A program made the position numbers and the translations under genes. The notes beneath the pieces are model-generated. The model was not told the origin of the DNA, did not search any database, and worked only from the letters and a program-made list of their open reading frames with translations. Source: Escherichia phage PHB12. Taken from it: a stretch of DNA of 64,000 bases. The first letter of the stretch is position 1, and the number at the start of each line of letters is the position of its first letter. This document shows positions 21,979 to 31,547 of this stretch, piece after piece. The DNA lies in the sequence record MK524178.1, one strand, 5' to 3'.

Positions 21979-22012
21979 AATACCTCCCACGTTTATAGGA
22001 GGTATTTATTAC

Positions 22013-22471
22013 TTATAAGAGGGTAGTGAGCACCTTATATAATGATTTGCCCATTACATATTCCCATTGAGAAGGTTTAATTAAAGCGAATGCATCAAAT
22101 TCAGGAATCTGTCGTCCATCCGGGAACGTATGATAGGAATTACAAACACTGTTTCTGAATTGCTCGTGCTCTACAGGGATGGTATATAAGAACAGATGAA
22201 TATTCTTATTGTCTGAGTAATGATGTTCACCTAGGTCTTTCAGGAAGGCAGGGTCATATTGTGTAAACCCAGTTTCTTCTTCGCATTCACGAATAGCGGC
22301 TTCGATAGGAGATTCACCGGGCTCGACACGACCTTTAGGAATATCCCACCGATGAGCTAATGCACCTTTAGGACGAGAACCAGTTACACGGCCCATGAAT
22401 AACTCTTTATCTTCGGTAAGGAAAATAATACCGGCTGATAGTTCTTTCACTTTATTTTTCTTACTCATCAT
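22013..22471 (-). CDS. nudE: Nudix hydrolase
   Basis: Nudix box GRVEPGESPIEAAIRECEEETGF. Confidence 0.85.
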   Translation of the reverse strand: MMSKKNKVKELSAGIIFLTEDKELFMGRVTGSRPKGALAHRWDIPKGRVEPGESPIEAAIRECEEETGFTQYDPAFLKDLGEHHYSDNKNIHLFLYTIPVEHEQFRNSVCNSYHTFPDGRQIPEFDAFALIKPSQWEYVMGKSLYKVLTTLL

Positions 22472-22712
22472 CTCGGTCCCATGATTTGGCCATTAATTCG
22501 GACATAAATTCTTCAATGCGCGTTTCTTTAGATGGACTTTCACTATTAGAGACCGCAAGTTTGTAATCTGCAATAGGACAGAACATATCAAGGTCCATAT
22601 TAAGGTCGTCTTTGATTTTTTCTTCTGACACATCTTTATCGTATGTGTACAGATAACTATCACATGATTCTGATTTAATGTAAATTGCTATACTCATCTC
22701 AAATTCCTGCAT
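22461..22712 (-). CDS. small acidic protein, 83 aa
   Basis: ORF track. Confidence 0.5.
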   Translation of the reverse strand: MQEFEMSIAIYIKSESCDSYLYTYDKDVSEEKIKDDLNMDLDMFCPIADYKLAVSNSESPSKETRIEEFMSELMAKSWDRDDE

Positions 22713-23173
22713 TCGGTAATAAAACGTTCAACTTCATTATTCTTGGCTTTTATCTTGTCTTTATGTTCTTGTAAACTACTTTTAATAAGATTAATAATGA
22801 TGGCGGCGGTACCGCCGCCAATGATGCCACCAACAACGCTTATGATACTAGATGCTAATAAGATAGCAATAATATCAACAAAACCGAAAGAACTCACCTT
22901 AGTACTGAAAAACCATATAGATGGTACAAATATAATCCATCCTGTTATCCATTGGCACTTATTGAAAAACTTTTCAAGCTCAGCTTGAGTTGTTCGTATT
23001 ACTTCATCGATAGGTTGATATCCATTAATGTATCTGTTCACGATAATACCTGCTGGCTGGTCGATTTTAAATTCTTGGCAAATATGTTTCACTAAGTAGG
23101 ATGGACATCCTGTCCAATCTACTGAATAGTATGAAATACCTTCATTGCCATCGTCTATATTATTGTTAATCAT
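22694..23173 (-). CDS. membrane protein with C-terminal RFITECR tail, 159 aa
   Basis: Two hydrophobic segments; tail shared with four other ORFs in this block. Confidence 0.55.
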   Translation of the reverse strand: MINNNIDDGNEGISYYSVDWTGCPSYLVKHICQEFKIDQPAGIIVNRYINGYQPIDEVIRTTQAELEKFFNKCQWITGWIIFVPSIWFFSTKVSSFGFVDIIAILLASSIISVVGGIIGGGTAAIIINLIKSSLQEHKDKIKAKNNEVERFITECRNLR

Positions 23174-23859
23174 TACCAGCCTTCCATAGGGAATTCCAGA
23201 TAAACTTGAGCATTGACACGAATTTCATTGGTAATCTTTTTAACTCGGTCTGTATTACGAGATACACGTCCGAACCAACGCCATCCATTACTAATTGCAC
23301 GAGAACCAGTGTGCCATGTTTGCCAATCAAACTGAAGAAGAGTACGATCTGGAGCTTCCCATTTCTCTAGTTCACCTTTTTCAATTTTTTCGAGGACTTC
23401 TTTGTGCCACTGACGATAGATAAGTTCGCCATCAGGAATCTGACTGAACTCTGCAGTTCCTGTTGCAAAATGAGTAGGACACACGTCAGCGTTAACAAGA
23501 CCAAGAATATGTTCAGACAAATAGCGAGGATTGTCATAATCAGGTTGTCCTGCAGTAATAAAATGTTGTCCTGTTGGAATATCTGGGCGTGGTACGTCAT
23601 CATGGTGATATCCAGGAATAGCAGGGTACCAACCAGGCATCAGCATGTGGACTCGTGAATCAAATACTACATCCGAGTCTTTCCAATCGTCAGGAAGATT
23701 TTGGATAAAGCTACGAGTAATTGGGCCGCCATTATCAAAAGCAAAATTCAAATCGCAGTTAAAGAACATAGGCTCGTTTTTAATCTGGTCGTTTTTAATC
23801 GCATGAGCAAAACCGCCTACTGCACGAGCTTGACTATTAAACACTTTAGAACTATTCAT
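23173..23859 (-). CDS. hypothetical protein, 228 aa (possible Fe/2OG-oxygenase-like, very tentative)
   Basis: ORF track; His/Asp-rich patch GYHHDDVP; no firm family assignment. Confidence 0.5.
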   Translation of the reverse strand: MNSSKVFNSQARAVGGFAHAIKNDQIKNEPMFFNCDLNFAFDNGGPITRSFIQNLPDDWKDSDVVFDSRVHMLMPGWYPAIPGYHHDDVPRPDIPTGQHFITAGQPDYDNPRYLSEHILGLVNADVCPTHFATGTAEFSQIPDGELIYRQWHKEVLEKIEKGELEKWEAPDRTLLQFDWQTWHTGSRAISNGWRWFGRVSRNTDRVKKITNEIRVNAQVYLEFPMEGW

Positions 23860-23860
23860 A

Positions 23861-24166
23861 TTATTTTCCTCGACATTCTTTAATGAAATTTTCTAGATTG
23901 GTAGATTCAATAGCTTTTTTACGAGCTTCTGCGTGTTCTTCTTCGGACAATTTACATTTATAATTGACCCAGACATTATGGTCGAAACTAGTCGTAGCAT
24001 ATAATAACAATGCTCCAACGAATAGCAAAAACGGCGATAAGAATACAAAACCAGGAACACCATCCATATCGTAAGCCTTTTGTAATACTGCAACAGAAAG
24101 GGCTGCGTAAAAAGGTGATGCAAATATTGTTAAAAGACCAATTCGGTTGGTTTCGCCTAATTTCAT
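23861..24166 (-). CDS. two-TM membrane protein with C-terminal ENFIKECR tail, 101 aa
   Basis: Hydrophobic helices LLTIFASPFYAALSVAVL and FVFLSPFLLFVGALLLY. Confidence 0.55.
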   Translation of the reverse strand: MKLGETNRIGLLTIFASPFYAALSVAVLQKAYDMDGVPGFVFLSPFLLFVGALLLYATTSFDHNVWVNYKCKLSEEEHAEARKKAIESTNLENFIKECRGK

Positions 24167-24185
24167 AATATTCTCCTCATGTTTT

Positions 24186-24226
24186 AATAGGACTACTATA
24201 ACATAGTCCCTATAATTGTGTAAACA
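24186..24226 (-). promoter_or_regulatory. early promoter with palindrome (PeSL-type cassette)
   Basis: Minus-sense GTTTAC; inverted repeat TAGGACTA/TAGTCC over the -10 region. Confidence 0.55.
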
Positions 24227-24237
24227 GTTTTGTGAAG

Positions 24238-25194
24238 TTATTTGAAAGGTTTTACCATATGGAAATTTTGTTTGAAACGTTTGACGTAATCATCATGTCC
24301 TAAGCTTTGGTACATACTTACTACTTTGCTGTAGTTTTCCCAGGCGTATTCACGGAACCAACCGGAGGTGATGCTTGTACAGACTTTTTCCAATGCCATC
24401 ATGAAACTGGCTTCAGGGTTAATTTTAAAGTCATTAGGAATCTGAGAACGTTCTAATGCTAGTACACATGATTCTTCGTATACACCGGCCAACTTGACCA
24501 TTTCTGGTAATGATTCGAACTTCTCGCGTGAGGTCATGACTTCAGAACCATCTTTCATATAAAATGTATACGCTGGACGGTCTGTTAGCGCAATGGCTTC
24601 ATGAATAGTATCATGGTCATATGTATAGATGCCATCTTTAAAGAACGCACTTTTAGAAGTGTCAAGAACTGGGTGAACATAGTTCAAGGTTTCTTTCTGG
24701 CGTTTCAGCATAATTTCAGTAAGTTCATCGTTCAGTGTAACACCTTTACCACGAAGATACTGAATATGGTTCATAGTCTTTAAAAAGAACGGATTATTTT
24801 TCTTGAAACGATGAGACATCTTAATTGCAAGACATATCTCAGGAGTCGCCCAGTAAAACCCGTTCAAACGGTCTTTAGTCAAATTTTTCTTGGCGTATTT
24901 TAAAAGGTCATAAGAAGACGTGAAATCTTCAGGAGTGAGTTCACCGACTAATTCACGGGCATTAGTGATTGCCGGAACAATATATGCTTCAAAATGAGTT
25001 TCGCGTCCATTATGGAAGCATTTGAAAACTTGGACATCAGGGTTATCTTGATGAACATATACACCCATCATTTGATTTTTGAACGCATTCCAAGAACATT
25101 GGTCTGCAATAAAGTCCCAATCACTATTTTTGATAGCGCTAGAATCAATAAGACCGTGATAGTGAAGTGCACGAGAACCAATAACTAACATCAT
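24238..25194 (-). CDS. hypothetical protein, 318 aa (possible nucleotidyltransferase-like N-terminus)
   Basis: N-terminal IGSRAL...SDWDF; spacing is atypical for a Pol-beta motif. Confidence 0.5.
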   Translation of the reverse strand: MMLVIGSRALHYHGLIDSSAIKNSDWDFIADQCSWNAFKNQMMGVYVHQDNPDVQVFKCFHNGRETHFEAYIVPAITNARELVGELTPEDFTSSYDLLKYAKKNLTKDRLNGFYWATPEICLAIKMSHRFKKNNPFFLKTMNHIQYLRGKGVTLNDELTEIMLKRQKETLNYVHPVLDTSKSAFFKDGIYTYDHDTIHEAIALTDRPAYTFYMKDGSEVMTSREKFESLPEMVKLAGVYEESCVLALERSQIPNDFKINPEASFMMALEKVCTSITSGWFREYAWENYSKVVSMYQSLGHDDYVKRFKQNFHMVKPFK

Positions 25195-25222
25195 AATATT
25201 TTCCTCGGATTAATTCATTAAC

Positions 25223-25462
25223 TTAAATTTCACGACATGCGATATCATATTCATCCCAGAGGTCATCGTGTGAAGCCTCTACTAATGGAACGATTGTACC
25301 ATTTATGTCTTCATTATAAGGGCAAATTGTACAGTGCGCATCTTCGAATCGGATGCCTTTGTGTTCAGATTTTTTATAACGCATATCGAATATCTTTGCA
25401 AACTTTTCACGAGTAATGGTTTTAGCAACCACTTTGGTTCCAATACTTTCATAATAAATCAT
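25223..25462 (-). CDS. small Cys/His-containing protein, 79 aa
   Basis: ORF track; HCTICPY motif. Confidence 0.5.
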   Translation of the reverse strand: MIYYESIGTKVVAKTITREKFAKIFDMRYKKSEHKGIRFEDAHCTICPYNEDINGTIVPLVEASHDDLWDEYDIACREI

Positions 25463-25480
25463 TGTGGACTCCGTTTAATT

Positions 25481-25521
25481 TGATAGGACTACTATAACAT
25501 AGCCCTATCTTGTTGTAAACT
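25481..25521 (-). promoter_or_regulatory. early promoter with palindrome (PeSL-type cassette)
   Basis: Minus-sense GTTTAC plus near-copy of the TAGGACTACTATAACATAG element. Confidence 0.55.
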
Positions 25522-25524
25522 GTT

Positions 25525-25722
25525 TTAGCAAGAATAACTAGATGATACCCAGCCTTGAACAGTGATACTATTGTGGGATAATGAGATCGCGTCCTGGAGA
25601 TTCAGACCTGCGTTATCTTCAATCCATAACGTAACTTCTTCGCTTTCTTCTGTTGCAATTTGGAACAGGTTTTCCAGAGCAGCTACTGCCGTACGTACAG
25701 CACAATCTAATTCACGAGACAT
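25525..25722 (-). CDS. Cys-tail family member (ends WVSSSYSC), 65 aa
   Basis: C-terminal G-W-V-S-S-S-x-x-C shared with two adjacent paralogs. Confidence 0.6.
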   Translation of the reverse strand: MSRELDCAVRTAVAALENLFQIATEESEEVTLWIEDNAGLNLQDAISLSHNSITVQGWVSSSYSC

Positions 25723-25731
25723 ATGGTTTCC

Positions 25732-26004
25732 TTAGCAAGTGTGAGAAGATGCGATCCAACCACCAGTTTCGAGGCTTAGGTTGTAGTCGTATTGGTAAAC
25801 GTCGGCCCATTCAGCATAGCCGTTTTTTGTACAACGTTCAAGGTCGGCTTTAAGCTGTCCGGGTGAATGATATGTTCCACCCATACCATAAGCTGGATAC
25901 AAGTCGAATGTTGTGTTTTGTTTATCAGCAATTTCTTTGGCAGCCTCAATAGCTGCATAGATTTTTGCTACAGCTTCAGCCAGTTCGGTTTGTTCTTTAG
26001 ACAT
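25732..26004 (-). CDS. Cys-tail family member (ends WIASSHTC), 90 aa
   Basis: Same C-terminal motif; the stop codon is followed directly by the SD of the next gene. Confidence 0.6.
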   Translation of the reverse strand: MSKEQTELAEAVAKIYAAIEAAKEIADKQNTTFDLYPAYGMGGTYHSPGQLKADLERCTKNGYAEWADVYQYDYNLSLETGGWIASSHTC

Positions 26005-26013
26005 AATGATTCC

Positions 26014-26319
26014 TTAGCACAACGCAGAAGACGAAACCCAAGCACCTTCAGTAATAACGTAACCATTACCTTCACGCTTAACATCGCCACCATTATTTTC
26101 AATTTCATCTTTCATCCACTGGGATACGATTTCACCCTTAGGATAATAAGTACGACCGCTACCATAATCACCTACAGAAAATGATACGGCATATTGGTCT
26201 GCGATCTTTGTTGCTTCTTCTTCGATACGTTCAGCTTGGTTCAGAAGTTTATAAATTGCATCTGAAGCGGATTTGGCATCATTAAACTCTGGTACTTTAA
26301 TTTCAATAATCTTACTCAT
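26014..26319 (-). CDS. Cys-tail family member (ends WVSSSALC), 101 aa
   Basis: Same C-terminal motif; N-terminal amphipathic helix. Confidence 0.6.
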   Translation of the reverse strand: MSKIIEIKVPEFNDAKSASDAIYKLLNQAERIEEEATKIADQYAVSFSVGDYGSGRTYYPKGEIVSQWMKDEIENNGGDVKREGNGYVITEGAWVSSSALC

Positions 26320-26675
26320 TTTCTACATTCCTTAATAAAGTTTTCTATTGTTTCATTTTCACGTCTAGCTAGGAGTTCATTATAACTAATCATTTGAGAA
26401 GCGTAAACTTTTTTATTTTTCTTGTTATGGTTTATAAAATCGTAGTAAAAATAGACTACAGTACAAAAGGATGCGATGGATGCAAAGGCTTGGGTATACC
26501 GTAAGTCCTGCCATTGGTCTGTGAATCCACCAGAGTTCCCTATAAATCCTAACACAACGCCGTCAATAAGAAATCCAACTAATCCAAAGGCAAATCCCAT
26601 GCCAATACTCATAATAAAAATTAGAATGTTCTCACCAAGAGAAGGCCATACGGTTAAGAGTTGAGGCTTTTGCAT
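26316..26675 (-). CDS. membrane protein with C-terminal ENFIKECR tail, 119 aa
   Basis: Hydrophobic segments ILIFIMSIGMGFAFGLVGFLIDGVVLGFI and FASIASFCTVVYFYY. Confidence 0.55.
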   Translation of the reverse strand: MQKPQLLTVWPSLGENILIFIMSIGMGFAFGLVGFLIDGVVLGFIGNSGGFTDQWQDLRYTQAFASIASFCTVVYFYYDFINHNKKNKKVYASQMISYNELLARRENETIENFIKECRK

Positions 26676-27079
26676 CTTATTTCCTTAACGAATTCCATAG
26701 CTTCTTCATATTCATACTTTTTAACAGCTTCATCATACTGAGCTTGGGCTTTTGCGCACTGAACTTTCCACTCACGAACTCGAGCTCTGTGATGACGGCC
26801 TTGGTGCCAATATCCTACCCAGTTAATAGGCATTAATAAAAATGGTACAATAAGTGGTGCGACGAACATTAATGAAAATGCTGCATCAGACGATATAACT
26901 TCACTAGAATCTAAAACAGCTCCTATAATCATAAAGATTAAAAATGCTAAAGCTAAAATAGGGCCAAATAGTACTTCGTTTGGGATTAATTTACGTTTGT
27001 ATTCATACGCCCAAGGCTTAATTGGCATGTATAGGGTTGGCTTTGACATATTCTCTACATTCCATAATAAATTGCTCAA
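26654..27079 (-). CDS. membrane protein with C-terminal EFVKEIR tail, 141 aa
   Basis: Two TM segments; likely start at the internal ATG (MSKPTLY). Confidence 0.55.
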   Translation of the reverse strand: MSNLLWNVENMSKPTLYMPIKPWAYEYKRKLIPNEVLFGPILALAFLIFMIIGAVLDSSEVISSDAAFSLMFVAPLIVPFLLMPINWVGYWHQGRHHRARVREWKVQCAKAQAQYDEAVKKYEYEEAMEFVKEIRCKSLNS

Positions 27080-27635
27080 GGATTAAATTGTTAGTGAAAT
27101 TAGGACTAACAACCATAGTTTCATAAAGCGCATCAATAGCACTTAAAGCATCAACTCTTTTAAGCAAAGGCTTGCCTTCATACATAGTTTCAGAATCGAC
27201 GATTAACGTAAAGTAGTATTTTTTATTATCGACTAGAACTTCTGTATCGATATAAAACATATTAGACCTCAGAAGCTTATCTCTAAAACCATAATAATCT
27301 TCAGAGCGTTCGCTGATATATTCCAATTCAGTGTTTAAACAACAAACAGACCACGTAGGAGCAACGAAATCAGTGAATCTAATATCATGGTCTGCAACTA
27401 GTTTAGCAATAGCTCCGATATCATTAATCATGATACCTGGGGCTAATAAAGATTTTCGGTTATTTGCATATTCAGTTGTCTCATAAGAAGCTGACCAGTA
27501 CCATTTACGTCCGGTTGCAACATATCGTAATGAATCGACTAAAGACGTAGGTGGATTTACCTTATCTCGGAACTCTTCGAACATTGAGTCAATATCATTA
27601 TTTTGGTTTCGCATGTTAACTCCTTTATTATCCAA
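27018..27635 (-). CDS. soluble protein carrying an EQFIMECR motif near its C-terminus, 205 aa
   Basis: ORF track; probable start at the internal ATG (MRNQNN). Confidence 0.5.
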   Translation of the reverse strand: MDNKGVNMRNQNNDIDSMFEEFRDKVNPPTSLVDSLRYVATGRKWYWSASYETTEYANNRKSLLAPGIMINDIGAIAKLVADHDIRFTDFVAPTWSVCCLNTELEYISERSEDYYGFRDKLLRSNMFYIDTEVLVDNKKYYFTLIVDSETMYEGKPLLKRVDALSAIDALYETMVVSPNFTNNLILEQFIMECREYVKANPIHAN

Positions 27636-29560: not shown

Positions 29561-29637
<77 letters not shown>

Positions 29638-29643
29638 AATATA

Positions 29644-29717
29644 TGACCCAGACCAGATTCGAACTGGTAACCTTTCCCTTATGAGGGGACTGCTGCTAAC
29701 CGTTGAGCTACAGGGCC
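29644..29717 (-). tRNA. tRNA with anticodon CAT (Ile-lysidine or Met type)
   Basis: T-arm ACCAG-TTCGAAT-CTGGT and anticodon loop CTCATAA; acceptor and D stems each carry one mismatch in my hand fold. Confidence 0.5.
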
Positions 29718-31180: not shown

Positions 31181-31219
31181 GATAGGACTACTATAACATA
31201 GTCCTATAGGCTTGTATAC
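31181..31219 (-). promoter_or_regulatory. early promoter with palindrome (PeSL-type cassette, copy A)
   Basis: TTGATAGGACTACTATAACATAGTCCTAT element with a GTATAC -35-like hexamer. Confidence 0.55.
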
Positions 31220-31506: not shown

Positions 31507-31547
31507 TTGATAGGACTACTATAACATAGTCCTATCATGTTGTAAAT
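31507..31547 (-). promoter_or_regulatory. early promoter with palindrome (PeSL-type cassette, copy B)
   Basis: Same TTGATAGGACTACTATAACATAGTCCTAT element as at 31178; -35-like GTAAAT on plus. Confidence 0.55.

What the first reader, a model, noticed from the sequence alone, without database searches (positions are those of the whole stretch)
23173..25194. Two larger enzymes-in-waiting inside the membrane-protein block
The 228-aa ORF has a His/Asp-rich patch (GYHHDDVP) that could be a metal site. The 318-aa ORF starts with a GS...SDWDF arrangement faintly reminiscent of nucleotidyltransferases. Both are flanked by members of the FIxECR-tail family and have their own promoter cassettes. I cannot assign either with confidence.
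Basis: inference. Interest (0 to 1): 0.45.

Follow-up and report, generated by a model that had tools for sequence, protein, structure and literature searches.

The report
Phage dioxygenase and tail-linked nucleotidyltransferase
The two ORFs are real, widely conserved phage genes: one is predicted to be an iron/2-oxoglutarate dioxygenase and the other a nucleotidyltransferase, and they are not a pair, because the transferase instead travels with small proteins that all end in the same serine-cysteine tail.

Summary
The window is an RB69-type (Mosigvirus) T4-like phage. The 228-aa ORF is the RB69ORF132c homologue and the 318-aa ORF is the RB69ORF134c homologue. Both lie in a ~3.1 kb, 8-gene insert between e.2 and e.3 that T4 lacks.

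**228-aa ORF.** The model is confident (pLDDT 90.5). All top structural matches are PhyH-type Fe(II)/2OG dioxygenases. No Pfam model detects it. It is the most conserved gene of the region.

**Not a pair.** 57 of 80 dioxygenase loci lack the transferase within 10 kb.

**New observation.** 78 of 80 transferase loci carry 1-4 small acidic proteins ending W-x-S-S-x-x-Cys-COOH. 195 of these 205 ORFs lie on the same strand within 2.5 kb upstream. There are none in 942 kb of control loci. In the window they are ORF136c, 137c and 139c.

Substrates are unknown. Both enzyme assignments rest on prediction only.

The parts
23173..23859 (-). 228-aa predicted Fe(II)/2-oxoglutarate dioxygenase (RB69ORF132c homologue; phrog_1843; no Pfam family)
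   Evidence: ORF. RB69 annotation. PHROG. AF2 pLDDT 90.5. The top 50 Foldseek PDB hits are almost all PhyH-type 2OG oxygenases.
23590..23613 (-). GYHHDDVP patch (residues 83-90). H85-x-D87 are the proposed Fe(II) ligands.
   Evidence: H85 is invariant and D87 >=90% conserved in 111 diverse homologues. Position 86 varies (H/L/V/C) in distant homologues.
23278..23313 (-). H183...R194 (H-x10-R): proposed distal Fe ligand and 2OG C5-carboxylate-binding arginine
   Evidence: R194 is invariant and H183 >=90% conserved. Both lie on consecutive predicted strands, 182-185 and 192-201. A weak profile alignment puts them on the equivalent His and Arg of the BesD halogenase.
24238..25194 (-). 318-aa predicted Pol-beta-type nucleotidyltransferase (RB69ORF134c homologue; phrog_2141)
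24892..25191 (-). N-terminal NTase core (Pfam DUF7277, residues 2-101), with G6-S7 (25174-25179), D25-x-D27 (25114-25122) and E69 (24988-24990)
   Evidence: Pfam E=1.4e-27. The five residues are invariant. They are also kept in 248-263 aa actinophage versions.
24280..24837 (-). C-terminal helical domain (Pfam DUF7275, residues 120-305). It is the most conserved part of the protein and has no solved-structure match beyond its first helices.
25223..25462 (-). ORF135c (79 aa), first gene of the promoter-to-318-aa transcription unit
   Evidence: The gap to the 318-aa ORF is 28 nt.
25483..25519 (-). Early-promoter cassette upstream of ORF135c (TTTACA-N17-TATAGT, with the inverted repeat GGCTA..TAGTCC)
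24187..24224 (-). Early-promoter cassette upstream of ORF133c (TTTACA-N18-TATAGT, with the inverted repeat GGACTA..TAGTCC)
23861..24166 (-). ORF133c (101 aa), a hydrophobic protein with an FIKECR tail. It is translationally coupled to the 228-aa ORF (1-nt gap).
22694..23173 (-). e.2 homologue (159 aa, FITECR tail). Its start overlaps the stop of the 228-aa ORF.
25525..26319 (-). Three tandem small acidic proteins: ORF136c (25525-25722), ORF137c (25732-26004) and ORF139c (26014-26319). All end W-[VI]-[SA]-S-S-x-x-Cys-stop. They are the conserved genomic partners of the nucleotidyltransferase.

Best explanation
These are two independent accessory early genes inside an RB69-type insertion in the nudE/e.2-e.3 hyperplastic region.

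(1) The 228-aa protein is an Fe(II)/2-oxoglutarate-dependent dioxygenase with a PhyH-like double-stranded beta-helix. H85 and D87 (in the GYHHDDVP patch) and H183 hold the iron. R194, eleven residues after H183, binds the 2OG C5 carboxylate. The enzyme would use O2 and 2OG to hydroxylate, or oxidatively dealkylate, a substrate that is still unknown. Because it is unusually strongly conserved, the substrate is probably a conserved host or phage molecule. This last step is inference.

(2) The 318-aa protein is an active Pol-beta-superfamily nucleotidyltransferase. G6-S7 position the NTP, and D25, D27 and E69 hold the two Mg2+ ions. The core is closest to MenT/AbiEii toxins and ANT/Lnu enzymes, and it is joined to a phage-specific helical domain (DUF7275). 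It transfers an NMP to a hydroxyl acceptor.

Its conserved genomic partners are 1-4 upstream small acidic proteins whose only invariant feature is a C-terminal W-x-S-S-x-x-Cys tail. I infer that the transferase acts on that tail (nucleotidylylation of a tail serine) or is controlled through it.

Shown (computationally predicted): the folds, the motifs, their conservation and the gene linkage. Inferred: catalysis, the acceptors and the biological role.
For: **Identity and context.** The window is 96-97% identical to RB69-like phages; RB69 annotation is. T4 has nudE, e.2 and e.3 adjacent.

**Dioxygenase.**
- The AF2 model has pLDDT 90.5.
- The Foldseek top 50 are almost all PhyH-type 2OG oxygenases: ColD, GriE, HygX, EctD, proline hydroxylases, SnoK and SptF, with probability 0.77-0.99 and E about 1e-3.
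- H85 and R194 are invariant, and D87, H183 and R198 are >=90% conserved, in 111 sequences of 32-54% identity.
- The only weak PDB profile hits are BesD-type Fe/2OG halogenases, aligning H183 and R194.
- One GenBank record annotates it '2OG-Fe(II) oxygenase', and a UniRef cluster is named 'Phytanoyl-CoA dioxygenase family'.
- It is the most conserved shared gene in 18 of 20 T4-like loci. Median identity is 81%, against 72.5% for lysozyme e.

**Transferase.**
- Pfam DUF7277 plus DUF7275.
- Invariant GS / DxD / E.
- The model has pLDDT 92.6.
- Foldseek finds 5uvd and MenT1 at probability 1.00.
- The catalytic motif is kept in minimal actinophage versions.

**Independence of the two genes.**
- 57 of 80 dioxygenase loci have no transferase within 10 kb.
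- 56 of 80 transferase loci have no dioxygenase.
- In Aeromonas phage contigs the two genes lie >100 kb apart, and the tail proteins stay with the transferase.

**Tail-protein linkage.**
- Strict tail pattern: 96 ORFs in 56 of 80 loci, all on the same strand, 45-2020 bp upstream.
- Relaxed pattern: 78 of 80 loci, with 195 of 205 ORFs upstream within 2.5 kb.
- Control: 0 hits in 57 control loci (942 kb, 7683 ORFs).
- The whole 64-kb window has only 3 hits, all just upstream of the transferase unit.
Against: - No sequence-level match to any curated 2OG-oxygenase or NTase family, or to any PDB chain, for either protein.
- TM-scores for the dioxygenase are low (0.25-0.41), and the loop carrying H-x-D is the least confident part of the model (pLDDT 66-77).
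- No coordinates were available, so the geometry of the proposed sites was not checked.
- The C-terminal two-thirds of the transferase has no structural analogue, so the acceptor cannot be read from structure.
- The tail-protein link is purely positional.
- More distant transferase homologues lack such neighbours: Stenotrophomonas phage Moby at 39% identity and DSS3_VP1 at 26%.
- In this window a promoter cassette and ORF135c lie between the tail-protein genes and the transferase gene.
- The 80 loci are not phylogenetically independent. I count roughly 8-10 independent phage groups.
Confidence: 0.72

Rival explanations
1. The 318-aa protein is a MenT/AbiEii-like tRNA 3'-end nucleotidyltransferase. 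It would either extend host tRNA acceptor ends to shut off host translation, or rebuild damaged 3' ends as RNA repair. The upstream small proteins would be its antitoxin-like inhibitors or timers rather than its substrates.
For: - MenT toxins have small cognate antitoxins; MenA1 is 68 aa (PMC10435456).
- In phage DSS3_VP1 the homologue lies ~1.2 kb downstream of a phosphoesterase gene and an RNA ligase 2 gene.
- Calcineurin-like phosphoesterases lie downstream in 14 loci.
Against: - No match to the DUF1814/AbiEii Pfam model at E<=1.
- ANT(2'') and LnuA, which act on small molecules, score almost as well.
- Several tandem paralogues that share only a C-terminal tail are not what a one-to-one antitoxin looks like.
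- No RNA ligase lies next to the gene in the 80 IMG/VR loci.
- No tRNA genes are adjacent in the window; the nearest are at 29561-29717.
Confidence: 0.2
2. The two large ORFs work together in one pathway, for example by activating and then oxidising the same substrate.
For: They lie ~0.4-2 kb apart on the same strand in ~24 T4-like enterobacterial and Aeromonas phage loci. Homologues are adjacent genes in Serratia phage 4S (locus tags 00243 and 00244).
Against: - 57 of 80 and 56 of 80 loci have one gene without the other within 10 kb.
- In the contigs of L017, L021 and L023 (the same contigs as L119, L111 and L113) they are >100 kb apart.
- They lie in different promoter units here.
- Their phage host ranges differ: 472 records against 735, and only the transferase is common in Acinetobacter, Pseudomonas and Vibrio phages.
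Confidence: 0.05
3. The 318-aa protein is a small-molecule nucleotidyltransferase of the ANT/Lnu type. It would inactivate or build a metabolite, antibiotic or nucleotide signal, and the tail proteins would be unrelated neighbours.
Against: The strict positional linkage to the tail proteins across unrelated phage groups, with zero background, is hard to explain by chance. The very strongly conserved large C-terminal domain has no counterpart in ANT or Lnu enzymes.
Confidence: 0.15
4. The 228-aa protein is a cupin-like metal-binding protein that is not a 2OG-dependent oxygenase. It could be an isomerase, a 2OG-independent oxygenase or a regulator.
For: No 2OG-oxygenase Pfam model matches any of the 111 family members. 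TM-scores are low. The Foldseek list also contains non-2OG cupins: ThoJ, and DUF4867 whose function is unknown.
Against: The invariant Arg is exactly where PhyH-type enzymes bind 2OG, at +11 from the distal His (the spacing is from my own recollection of the PhyH and EctD structures). H-x-D, not H-x-G/A, is conserved. Nearly all top hits are 2OG enzymes.
Confidence: 0.1

Closest known systems
PhyH-type Fe(II)/2OG dioxygenases (phytanoyl-CoA hydroxylase, EctD, GriE, HygX/EvdO, SnoK, free-proline hydroxylases, BesD halogenase)
   Same: The predicted double-stranded beta-helix; the H-x-D...H facial triad; an Arg about 11 residues after the distal His; the small single-domain size.
   Different: - No curated HMM detects it.
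- It is a phage-borne family: 737 clusters at 50% identity and 472 phage records.
- It is far more conserved than its neighbours.
- Its substrate is unknown.
- Tandem-duplicated forms exist whose second copy is degenerate.
Cyanophage 'phytanoyl-CoA dioxygenase domain' core gene and 2OG-Fe(II) oxygenases of T4-like cyanophages (Sullivan et al. 2010, PMC3037559)
   Same: T4-like phages carrying PhyH-like or 2OG oxygenases of unknown role.
   Different: tblastn of the 228-aa protein lists no cyanophage among its main host groups, so homology to the cyanophage genes is not shown. The role proposed for cyanophages, drawing down 2OG under nitrogen stress, has no obvious counterpart in enterobacteria.
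MenT/AbiEii (DUF1814) nucleotidyltransferase toxins (MenT1, MenT3/TglT, MenT4)
   Same: They are the best structural matches. They share a Pol-beta core followed by a helical region, with small proteins encoded upstream.
   Different: - No DUF1814 HMM match.
- The protein is about 120 aa longer, with a distinct, highly conserved C-terminal domain.
- It is phage-encoded and virtually absent from bacterial genomes. Only 5 MAG contigs were found among 185,579 species genomes.
- The upstream partners are tandem paralogues sharing a Cys-terminal tail.
ANT(2'')-Ia and LnuA antibiotic nucleotidyltransferases
   Different: Those are 158-175 aa enzymes acting on small molecules. They have no DUF7275 domain and no partner proteins.
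Protein-modifying Pol-beta-fold enzymes: MntA (AMPylates HepT), GlnE, DrrA, and the holo-ACP synthases CitX/MdcG that attach a nucleotide-derived group to a Ser of a small carrier protein (from my own knowledge; not verified here, and a literature search for CitX/MdcG found nothing)
   Same: In concept only: an NTase-fold enzyme encoded next to the small protein it modifies on a hydroxyl side chain.
   Different: No sequence or structural match was seen to these families, and modification of the tail proteins is untested.
PeSL promoter/stem-loop cassettes of T4-type hyperplastic regions (Arbiol 2010, PMC2839356; Comeau 2014, PMC4122927)
   Same: Repeated early-promoter cassettes (TTTACW-N17-TAYWAT type) with an inverted repeat, located between accessory genes in a hyperplastic region.
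   Different: Here the inverted repeat overlaps the -10 box instead of preceding the promoter. RB69-type cassettes are not described in the text I read.

Membership tests
Fe(II)/2OG-dependent dioxygenase superfamily | Double-stranded beta-helix fold | tested here: met
   AF2 pLDDT 90.5. The Foldseek PDB top 50 are almost all 2OG oxygenases, probability up to 0.99. This is a predicted structure; TM-scores are only 0.25-0.41.
Fe(II)/2OG-dependent dioxygenase superfamily | H-x-D/E...H iron-binding facial triad | tested here: met
   H85 is invariant; D87 and H183 are >=90% conserved in 111 homologues. The motif is present in distant members.
Fe(II)/2OG-dependent dioxygenase superfamily | Basic residue binding the 2OG C5 carboxylate, ~10-11 residues after the distal His | tested here: met
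   R194 is invariant (H183 +11). It aligns with the equivalent Arg of BesD in a weak profile hit.
PhyH family (Pfam PF05721) or any curated 2OG-oxygenase model | Significant match to the family HMM | tested here: not met
   No Pfam hit at E<=1 for the window protein. No 2OG-family hit in the 111 members at E<=0.01. There is only a sub-threshold PF13759 hit (E=0.007) in the second half of one fusion protein.
Fe(II)/2OG-dependent dioxygenase superfamily | 2OG- and O2-dependent turnover | not testable with these tools
   Needs biochemistry.
Pol-beta-like nucleotidyltransferase superfamily | hG[GS] ... [DE]h[DE]h plus a third carboxylate on the adjacent strand | tested here: met
   G6, S7, D25, D27 and E69 are invariant in 61 homologues. 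The GS-to-DxD spacing is 17 residues, somewhat longer than the classical 9-13. The motif is kept in actinophage versions.
Pol-beta-like nucleotidyltransferase superfamily | NTase alpha/beta core fold | tested here: met
DUF1814 / AbiEii / MenT toxins | Match to the DUF1814 (AbiEii) HMM | tested here: not met
   Only DUF7277 and DUF7275 are reported at E<=1.
DUF1814 / AbiEii / MenT toxins | C-terminal motifs III and IV (PMC10435456) | tested here: inconclusive
DUF1814 / AbiEii / MenT toxins | Cognate antitoxin encoded next to the toxin; toxicity through tRNA acceptor-stem extension | not testable with these tools
   Small proteins are encoded upstream, but their role and any tRNA activity need experiments.
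RlaP (RNA-ligase-associated Pol-beta NTase; Iyer et al. 2021, PMC7824862) | Family HMM match and association with RNA ligase genes | tested here: not met
   No such Pfam hit. No RNA ligase cluster lies among the neighbours in the 80 loci. A single case, DSS3_VP1, has an RNA ligase 2 gene nearby.
   In T4, nudE, e.2 and e.3 are contiguous. The RB69 record gives neither ORF a T4 counterpart. The whole T4 genome was not searched directly.

The most novel reading that the evidence does not exclude
The nucleotidyltransferase and the tandem small acidic proteins ending W-x-S-S-x-x-Cys-COOH form a previously undescribed phage protein-tagging system. The enzyme recognises the shared tail and nucleotidylylates one of its serines, or uses it to prime or attach a nucleotide-derived group. 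The variable bodies of the small proteins would then be activated or targeted against different host factors early in infection. Separately, the dioxygenase would be a very widespread phage enzyme acting on a conserved host macromolecule or nucleotide, not on a secondary metabolite.
Probability: 0.2. Interest if true: 0.8.

Novelty: new variant of a known kind. Interest (0 to 1): 0.5.

Why it matters
Both genes are abundant and uncharacterised. The dioxygenase family occurs in 472 phage genome records and comprises 737 clusters at 50% identity. The transferase family occurs in 735 records spanning T4-like phages, jumbo phages, Phapecoctavirus, Otagovirus, Acinetobacter phages and actinophages.

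Giving them enzyme classes with named catalytic residues makes them directly testable by point mutants, Fe/2OG turnover assays and NTP labelling.

The near-obligate linkage between the transferase and proteins that share only a Cys-terminal serine-rich tail points to a specific and cheap experiment: co-expression followed by intact-mass spectrometry. That experiment could reveal a new kind of phage-encoded protein modification, or a toxin/regulator pair. I found no paper that mentions either Pfam domain or either RB69 ORF.

Tried and rejected
**Sequence searches that found nothing useful**
- Pfam, NCBIfam and PADLOC scans gave only DUF7277/DUF7275.
- PDB sequence searches with single sequences and with profiles.
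- A PHROGs scan of 111 dioxygenase relatives found only unknown-function families.

**Functional pairing of the two ORFs.** Rejected on distribution.

**Ideas about the transferase's C-terminal domain**
- HEPN, PHP or HisJ relatedness: only a meaningless weak TIGR01856 hit.
- The GenBank names 'prohead assembly scaffold protein' and 'HNS-dependent expression A' for homologues are treated as mis-annotations.

**Other rejected or empty leads**
- ORF135c as an FIxECR-family member: its ending is not conserved.
- A homologue search for the tail proteins found only hypothetical phage proteins, with no fusions and no Pfam domains; they fall in phrog_899 and phrog_4882, both of unknown function.
- Fusion partners of the dioxygenase: only tandem self-duplications.
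- Bacterial genomes: 5 hits, all MAG contigs.
- Annotated neighbours of the transferase (metallophosphoesterase, DNA ligase, SIR2, RNR) are generic early genes and uninformative.
- Literature searches for the domains, the ORF names, or a phage NTase with Cys-terminal small proteins found nothing.

Full report
**Where we are.** The window is a T4-like phage of the RB69 group (Mosigvirus). Positions 22000-27000 are 96-97% identical to RB69, JK42, AV116 and more than 100 other records. Against the RB69 annotation, the 228-aa ORF (23173-23859, minus strand) is RB69ORF132c and the 318-aa ORF (24238-25194, minus strand) is RB69ORF134c. Both are 'hypothetical' there, with no T4 counterpart noted.

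The order on the minus strand is: e.3, ORF139c, ORF137c, ORF136c, [promoter cassette], ORF135c, 318-aa ORF, [promoter cassette], ORF133c, 228-aa ORF, e.2, ORF130c, nudE, e. In T4, nudE, e.2 and e.3 are contiguous. The RB69 type therefore carries a ~3.1 kb, eight-gene insertion in this hyperplastic region.

**Checking the observation.** The ORFs and both sequence patches are present as described.
- The promoter cassettes are real repeats. GGGMCTATGTTATAGTAGTCCTAT occurs four times in the window, all on the minus strand, against none in 100 shuffles.
- Each cassette holds a T4-type early promoter, TTTACA-N17/18-TATAGT with an extended TG. This matches the TTTACW...TAYWAT consensus given for T4/PST PeSL cassettes (PMC4122927).
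- The cassettes stand in front of the small ORFs 135c and 133c. The 318-aa ORF follows ORF135c after 28 nt. The 228-aa ORF follows ORF133c after 1 nt, and its stop overlaps the e.2 start.
- ORF133c and e.2 carry the F-I-x-E-C-R tail, and it is conserved in e.2 homologues. ORF135c does not carry it.

**The 228-aa protein.**
- *No curated match.* No Pfam, NCBIfam, PADLOC or PDB-sequence match exists. It belongs to phrog_1843, of unknown function.
- *Size and conservation of the family.* The word-indexed search finds 1292 clusters at 90% identity. An exhaustive profile search finds 737 clusters at 50% identity. In 46 close homologues, H85, H86, D87, D88, H183, R194 and R198 are invariant. In 111 homologues of only 32-54% identity, the invariant residues are exactly H85 and R194. 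D87, H183 and R198 are >=90% conserved, and position 86 varies.
- *Structure.* The AlphaFold2 model is confident (pLDDT 90.5, pTM 0.88) and mostly beta. Of the 50 best Foldseek hits in the PDB, almost all are PhyH-type Fe(II)/2OG dioxygenases: ColD, GriE, MysH, HygX, EvdO2, EctD, SnoK, SptF, SadA and proline hydroxylases. Probabilities reach 0.99 at E about 1e-3, but TM-scores are modest at 0.25-0.41.
- *Active site.* H183 and R194 sit on consecutive predicted strands. Their +11 spacing is the spacing I recall for PhyH and EctD (own knowledge). The only weak profile hits in the PDB are BesD-type Fe/2OG halogenases, which align precisely this H...R segment. Conservation of H-x-D rather than H-x-G/A argues for a hydroxylase-type enzyme and not a halogenase.
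- *Existing names.* One GenBank record (NRG-P0074) calls it '2OG-Fe(II) oxygenase', and a UniRef cluster is named 'Phytanoyl-CoA dioxygenase family'.
No curated HMM recognises any of the 111 members, so membership of the PhyH Pfam family as such is not shown.

**What the dioxygenase might act on is open.**
- It is the most conserved shared gene in 18 of 20 T4-like loci. Median identity to the window protein is 81%, against 72.5% for lysozyme e, 72% for the transferase and 62.5% for NudE. I read this as a constraint from a conserved substrate or partner (inference).
- Outside T4-like phages its neighbours vary. In about eight loci it sits next to or near a NAMPT gene, with NMNAT-Nudix, PRPP synthetase or a macro domain in some of them.
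- In Gordonia phage ClubL it is translationally coupled to an RtcB-like RNA ligase. In Mycobacterium phage Nanosmite an RtcB gene lies 2.2 kb upstream.
- In the window it is three genes from nudE. These are hints towards nucleotide, NAD or RNA chemistry and not evidence.
- Tandem fusions of two copies exist, with a degenerate second copy. These suggest a dimeric enzyme.

**The 318-aa protein.**
- *Domains and motifs.* Pfam gives DUF7277 (residues 2-101) and DUF7275 (120-305); the PHROG is phrog_2141, unknown function. In 61 homologues of 45-75% identity, G6, S7, D25, D27 and E69 are invariant. These are the hG[GS]...[DE]x[DE] plus third-carboxylate signature of Pol-beta-type nucleotidyltransferases. 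They fall at the start of helix 1, the start of strand 2 and the middle of the long strand 64-73.
- *C-terminal domain.* The rest of DUF7275 finds nothing, although it is the better conserved half. It has many invariant charged, His and Cys residues and is still 48-53% identical in Acinetobacter phages.
- *Minimal versions.* Actinophage proteins of 248-263 aa keep GS, DxD and E in a shortened core fused to the same domain.
- *Distribution.* The family occurs in 735 phage records and is essentially absent from bacterial genomes. Only five hits were found, all on MAG contigs, among 185,579 species genomes.
- *Conclusion.* It is not detected by the DUF1814/AbiEii or RlaP models. I therefore file it as a Pol-beta NTase that resembles MenT and ANT enzymes, not as a member of those families.

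**The two are not a pair.**
- Of 80 IMG/VR loci centred on a dioxygenase homologue, 23 also contain the transferase and 57 do not.
- Of 80 loci centred on the transferase, 24 contain the dioxygenase.
- All joint cases are T4-like enterobacterial or Aeromonas phages that share this hyperplastic region.
- Three Aeromonas phage contigs carry the two genes more than 100 kb apart (the contigs of L017/L119, L021/L111 and L023/L113).

**What the transferase does travel with.** Clustering its neighbours showed one family of small proteins (60-140 aa) immediately upstream in most loci.
- *Sequence features.* Their bodies are poorly conserved (mean column identity 27%). They have an N-terminal helix ending in ...IADE, often followed by Y-G-x-G-x-x-Y. 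All end in G-x-W-x-S-S-x-x-Cys as the last residue. In an alignment of 18 diverse members, only the initiator Met and the terminal Cys are invariant, and W, S, S are >=90% conserved.
- *Strict tail pattern* (W[VILMAT][SAG]SS..C at the C-terminus): 96 ORFs in 56 of 80 loci. All 96 are on the transferase strand, 45-2020 bp upstream. None lie downstream or on the other strand within +/-10 kb.
- *Relaxed pattern:* 78 of 80 loci and 205 ORFs, of which 195 are upstream within 2.5 kb.
- *Controls:* both patterns find nothing in 57 control loci without the transferase (942 kb, 7683 ORFs). In the whole 64-kb window the strict pattern finds three ORFs, namely ORF136c, ORF137c and ORF139c, directly upstream of the transferase unit.
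- *Breadth:* the loci come from at least 8-10 unrelated phage groups, including T4-like phages, ~360 kb jumbo phages, Phapecoctavirus-like, Otagovirus (checked in phiPsa315) and Acinetobacter Ac42-like phages.
- *Limits:* more distant transferase homologues (Moby at 39% identity, DSS3_VP1 at 26%, and the actinophage versions) lack such neighbours.
- *Other properties:* the small proteins are acidic, with pI 4.0-4.7. Their only relatives are hypothetical phage proteins, in phrog_899 and phrog_4882.

**How it most likely works.**
- *Dioxygenase.* Fe(II) is bound by H85, D87 and H183. 2OG is anchored by R194. O2 activation then leads to hydroxylation or oxidative dealkylation of an unidentified, probably conserved, substrate early in infection.
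- *Transferase.* Two-metal NMP transfer from an NTP to a hydroxyl acceptor.
- *Tail proteins.* Several paralogues that share nothing but a C-terminal tail look like a set of proteins presented to one enzyme through a common handle. I therefore favour the tail serines as the acceptor, or the tail as the docking element, at about 0.3 for direct modification. An antitoxin-like regulatory relation with a MenT-like tRNA-directed activity is the main rival.
- All of these steps are inference. Only the folds, motifs, conservation and gene linkage are shown, and the folds are predictions.

**Novelty and verdict.** Both proteins are uncharacterised members of well-known enzyme superfamilies. The dioxygenase assignment already appears in at least one database record. 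What appears to be new is the architecture of the transferase (NTase core plus DUF7275) and its near-obligate association with Cys-terminal tail proteins. I found no literature on either domain or either ORF. The finding is moderately interesting and directly testable.

Noticed in passing
window 25525-26319 (-): ORF136c, ORF137c, ORF139c: Three tandem small acidic proteins (pI 4.0-4.7) all end W-[VI]-[SA]-S-S-x-x-Cys-stop. The same tail family lies just upstream of the nucleotidyltransferase in 78 of 80 related loci and is absent from 942 kb of control loci.
   Followed up: yes
window 24187-24210, 25483-25506, 31182-31205, 31510-31533 (all -): A 24-nt cassette, (G/A)GG(A/G)CTATGTTATAGTAGTCCTAT, occurs four times against 0 expected. 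It contains the -10 box TATAGT of a T4-type early promoter inside an inverted repeat (GGACTA/TAGTCC), which makes it PeSL-like. The two copies near 31.2-31.5 kb were not examined.
   Followed up: partly
window 22694-23173, 23861-24166, 26316-26675, 26654-27079, 27018-27635 (-): e.2, ORF133c, e.3, e.4 and e.5 share a C-terminal F-[IV]-x-E-[CI]-R motif. It is conserved in e.2 homologues of other T4-like phages (...FI[EK]ECRK). The 228-aa ORF is translationally coupled between two of them.
   Followed up: partly
L001 7025-7331 (RB69 AY303349) vs window 26014-26319: The RB69 reference record has one extra T after GTGG. This splits the gene into RB69ORF139c (71 aa) and ORF138c (34 aa), whereas the window has a single intact 101-aa ORF. 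The RB69 tail also reads WVSSPALC instead of WVSSSALC.
   Followed up: yes
L003 (IMGVR_UViG_2706795553_000001): A sibling phage with a 96%-identical dioxygenase plus ORF133c, e.2 and nudE shows no match to the transferase, ORF135c-139c or e.3-e.6 within 10 kb. The transferase and the tail proteins are missing together there.
   Followed up: no
L032, L044, L060, L066, L073 (adjacent); L064, L077, L081 (nearby): In non-T4-like phage contigs the dioxygenase gene sits directly after, or near, a NAMPT gene. An NMNAT-Nudix gene, a PRPP synthetase or a macro-domain gene lies in some of these neighbourhoods, which together make an NAD-salvage setting.
   Followed up: partly
L164 4004-4672 (Gordonia phage ClubL gp74); L166 (Mycobacterium phage Nanosmite gp132): Actinophage homologues of the dioxygenase lie next to, or 2.2 kb from, an RtcB-like RNA ligase. 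Nanosmite also has a metallophosphoesterase and an RF-1-like gene just downstream.
   Followed up: no
P0255, P0289, P0343, P0383, P0388: These 387-482 aa proteins are tandem duplications of the dioxygenase domain. In P0388 the second copy has lost the H-x-D motif.
   Followed up: partly
L107 8918-9142 (cluster c9): One small-protein variant carries the tail motif twice: an internal ...DWLSSSC... and a terminal ...IWESSSC. Other variants end WASSRC or W-T-Y-S-S-Q-D-C.
   Followed up: no
L170 (phage DSS3_VP1, Naomviridae): A 26%-identical homologue of the transferase lies ~1.2 kb downstream of a phosphoesterase gene and an RNA ligase 2 gene. This is the only RNA-repair-like context seen.
   Followed up: no
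window 29561-29717 (-): tRNA-Arg(tct) and tRNA-Met(cat) are the only tRNA genes in the window. This contrasts with the eight-tRNA cluster at the equivalent place in T4.
   Followed up: no
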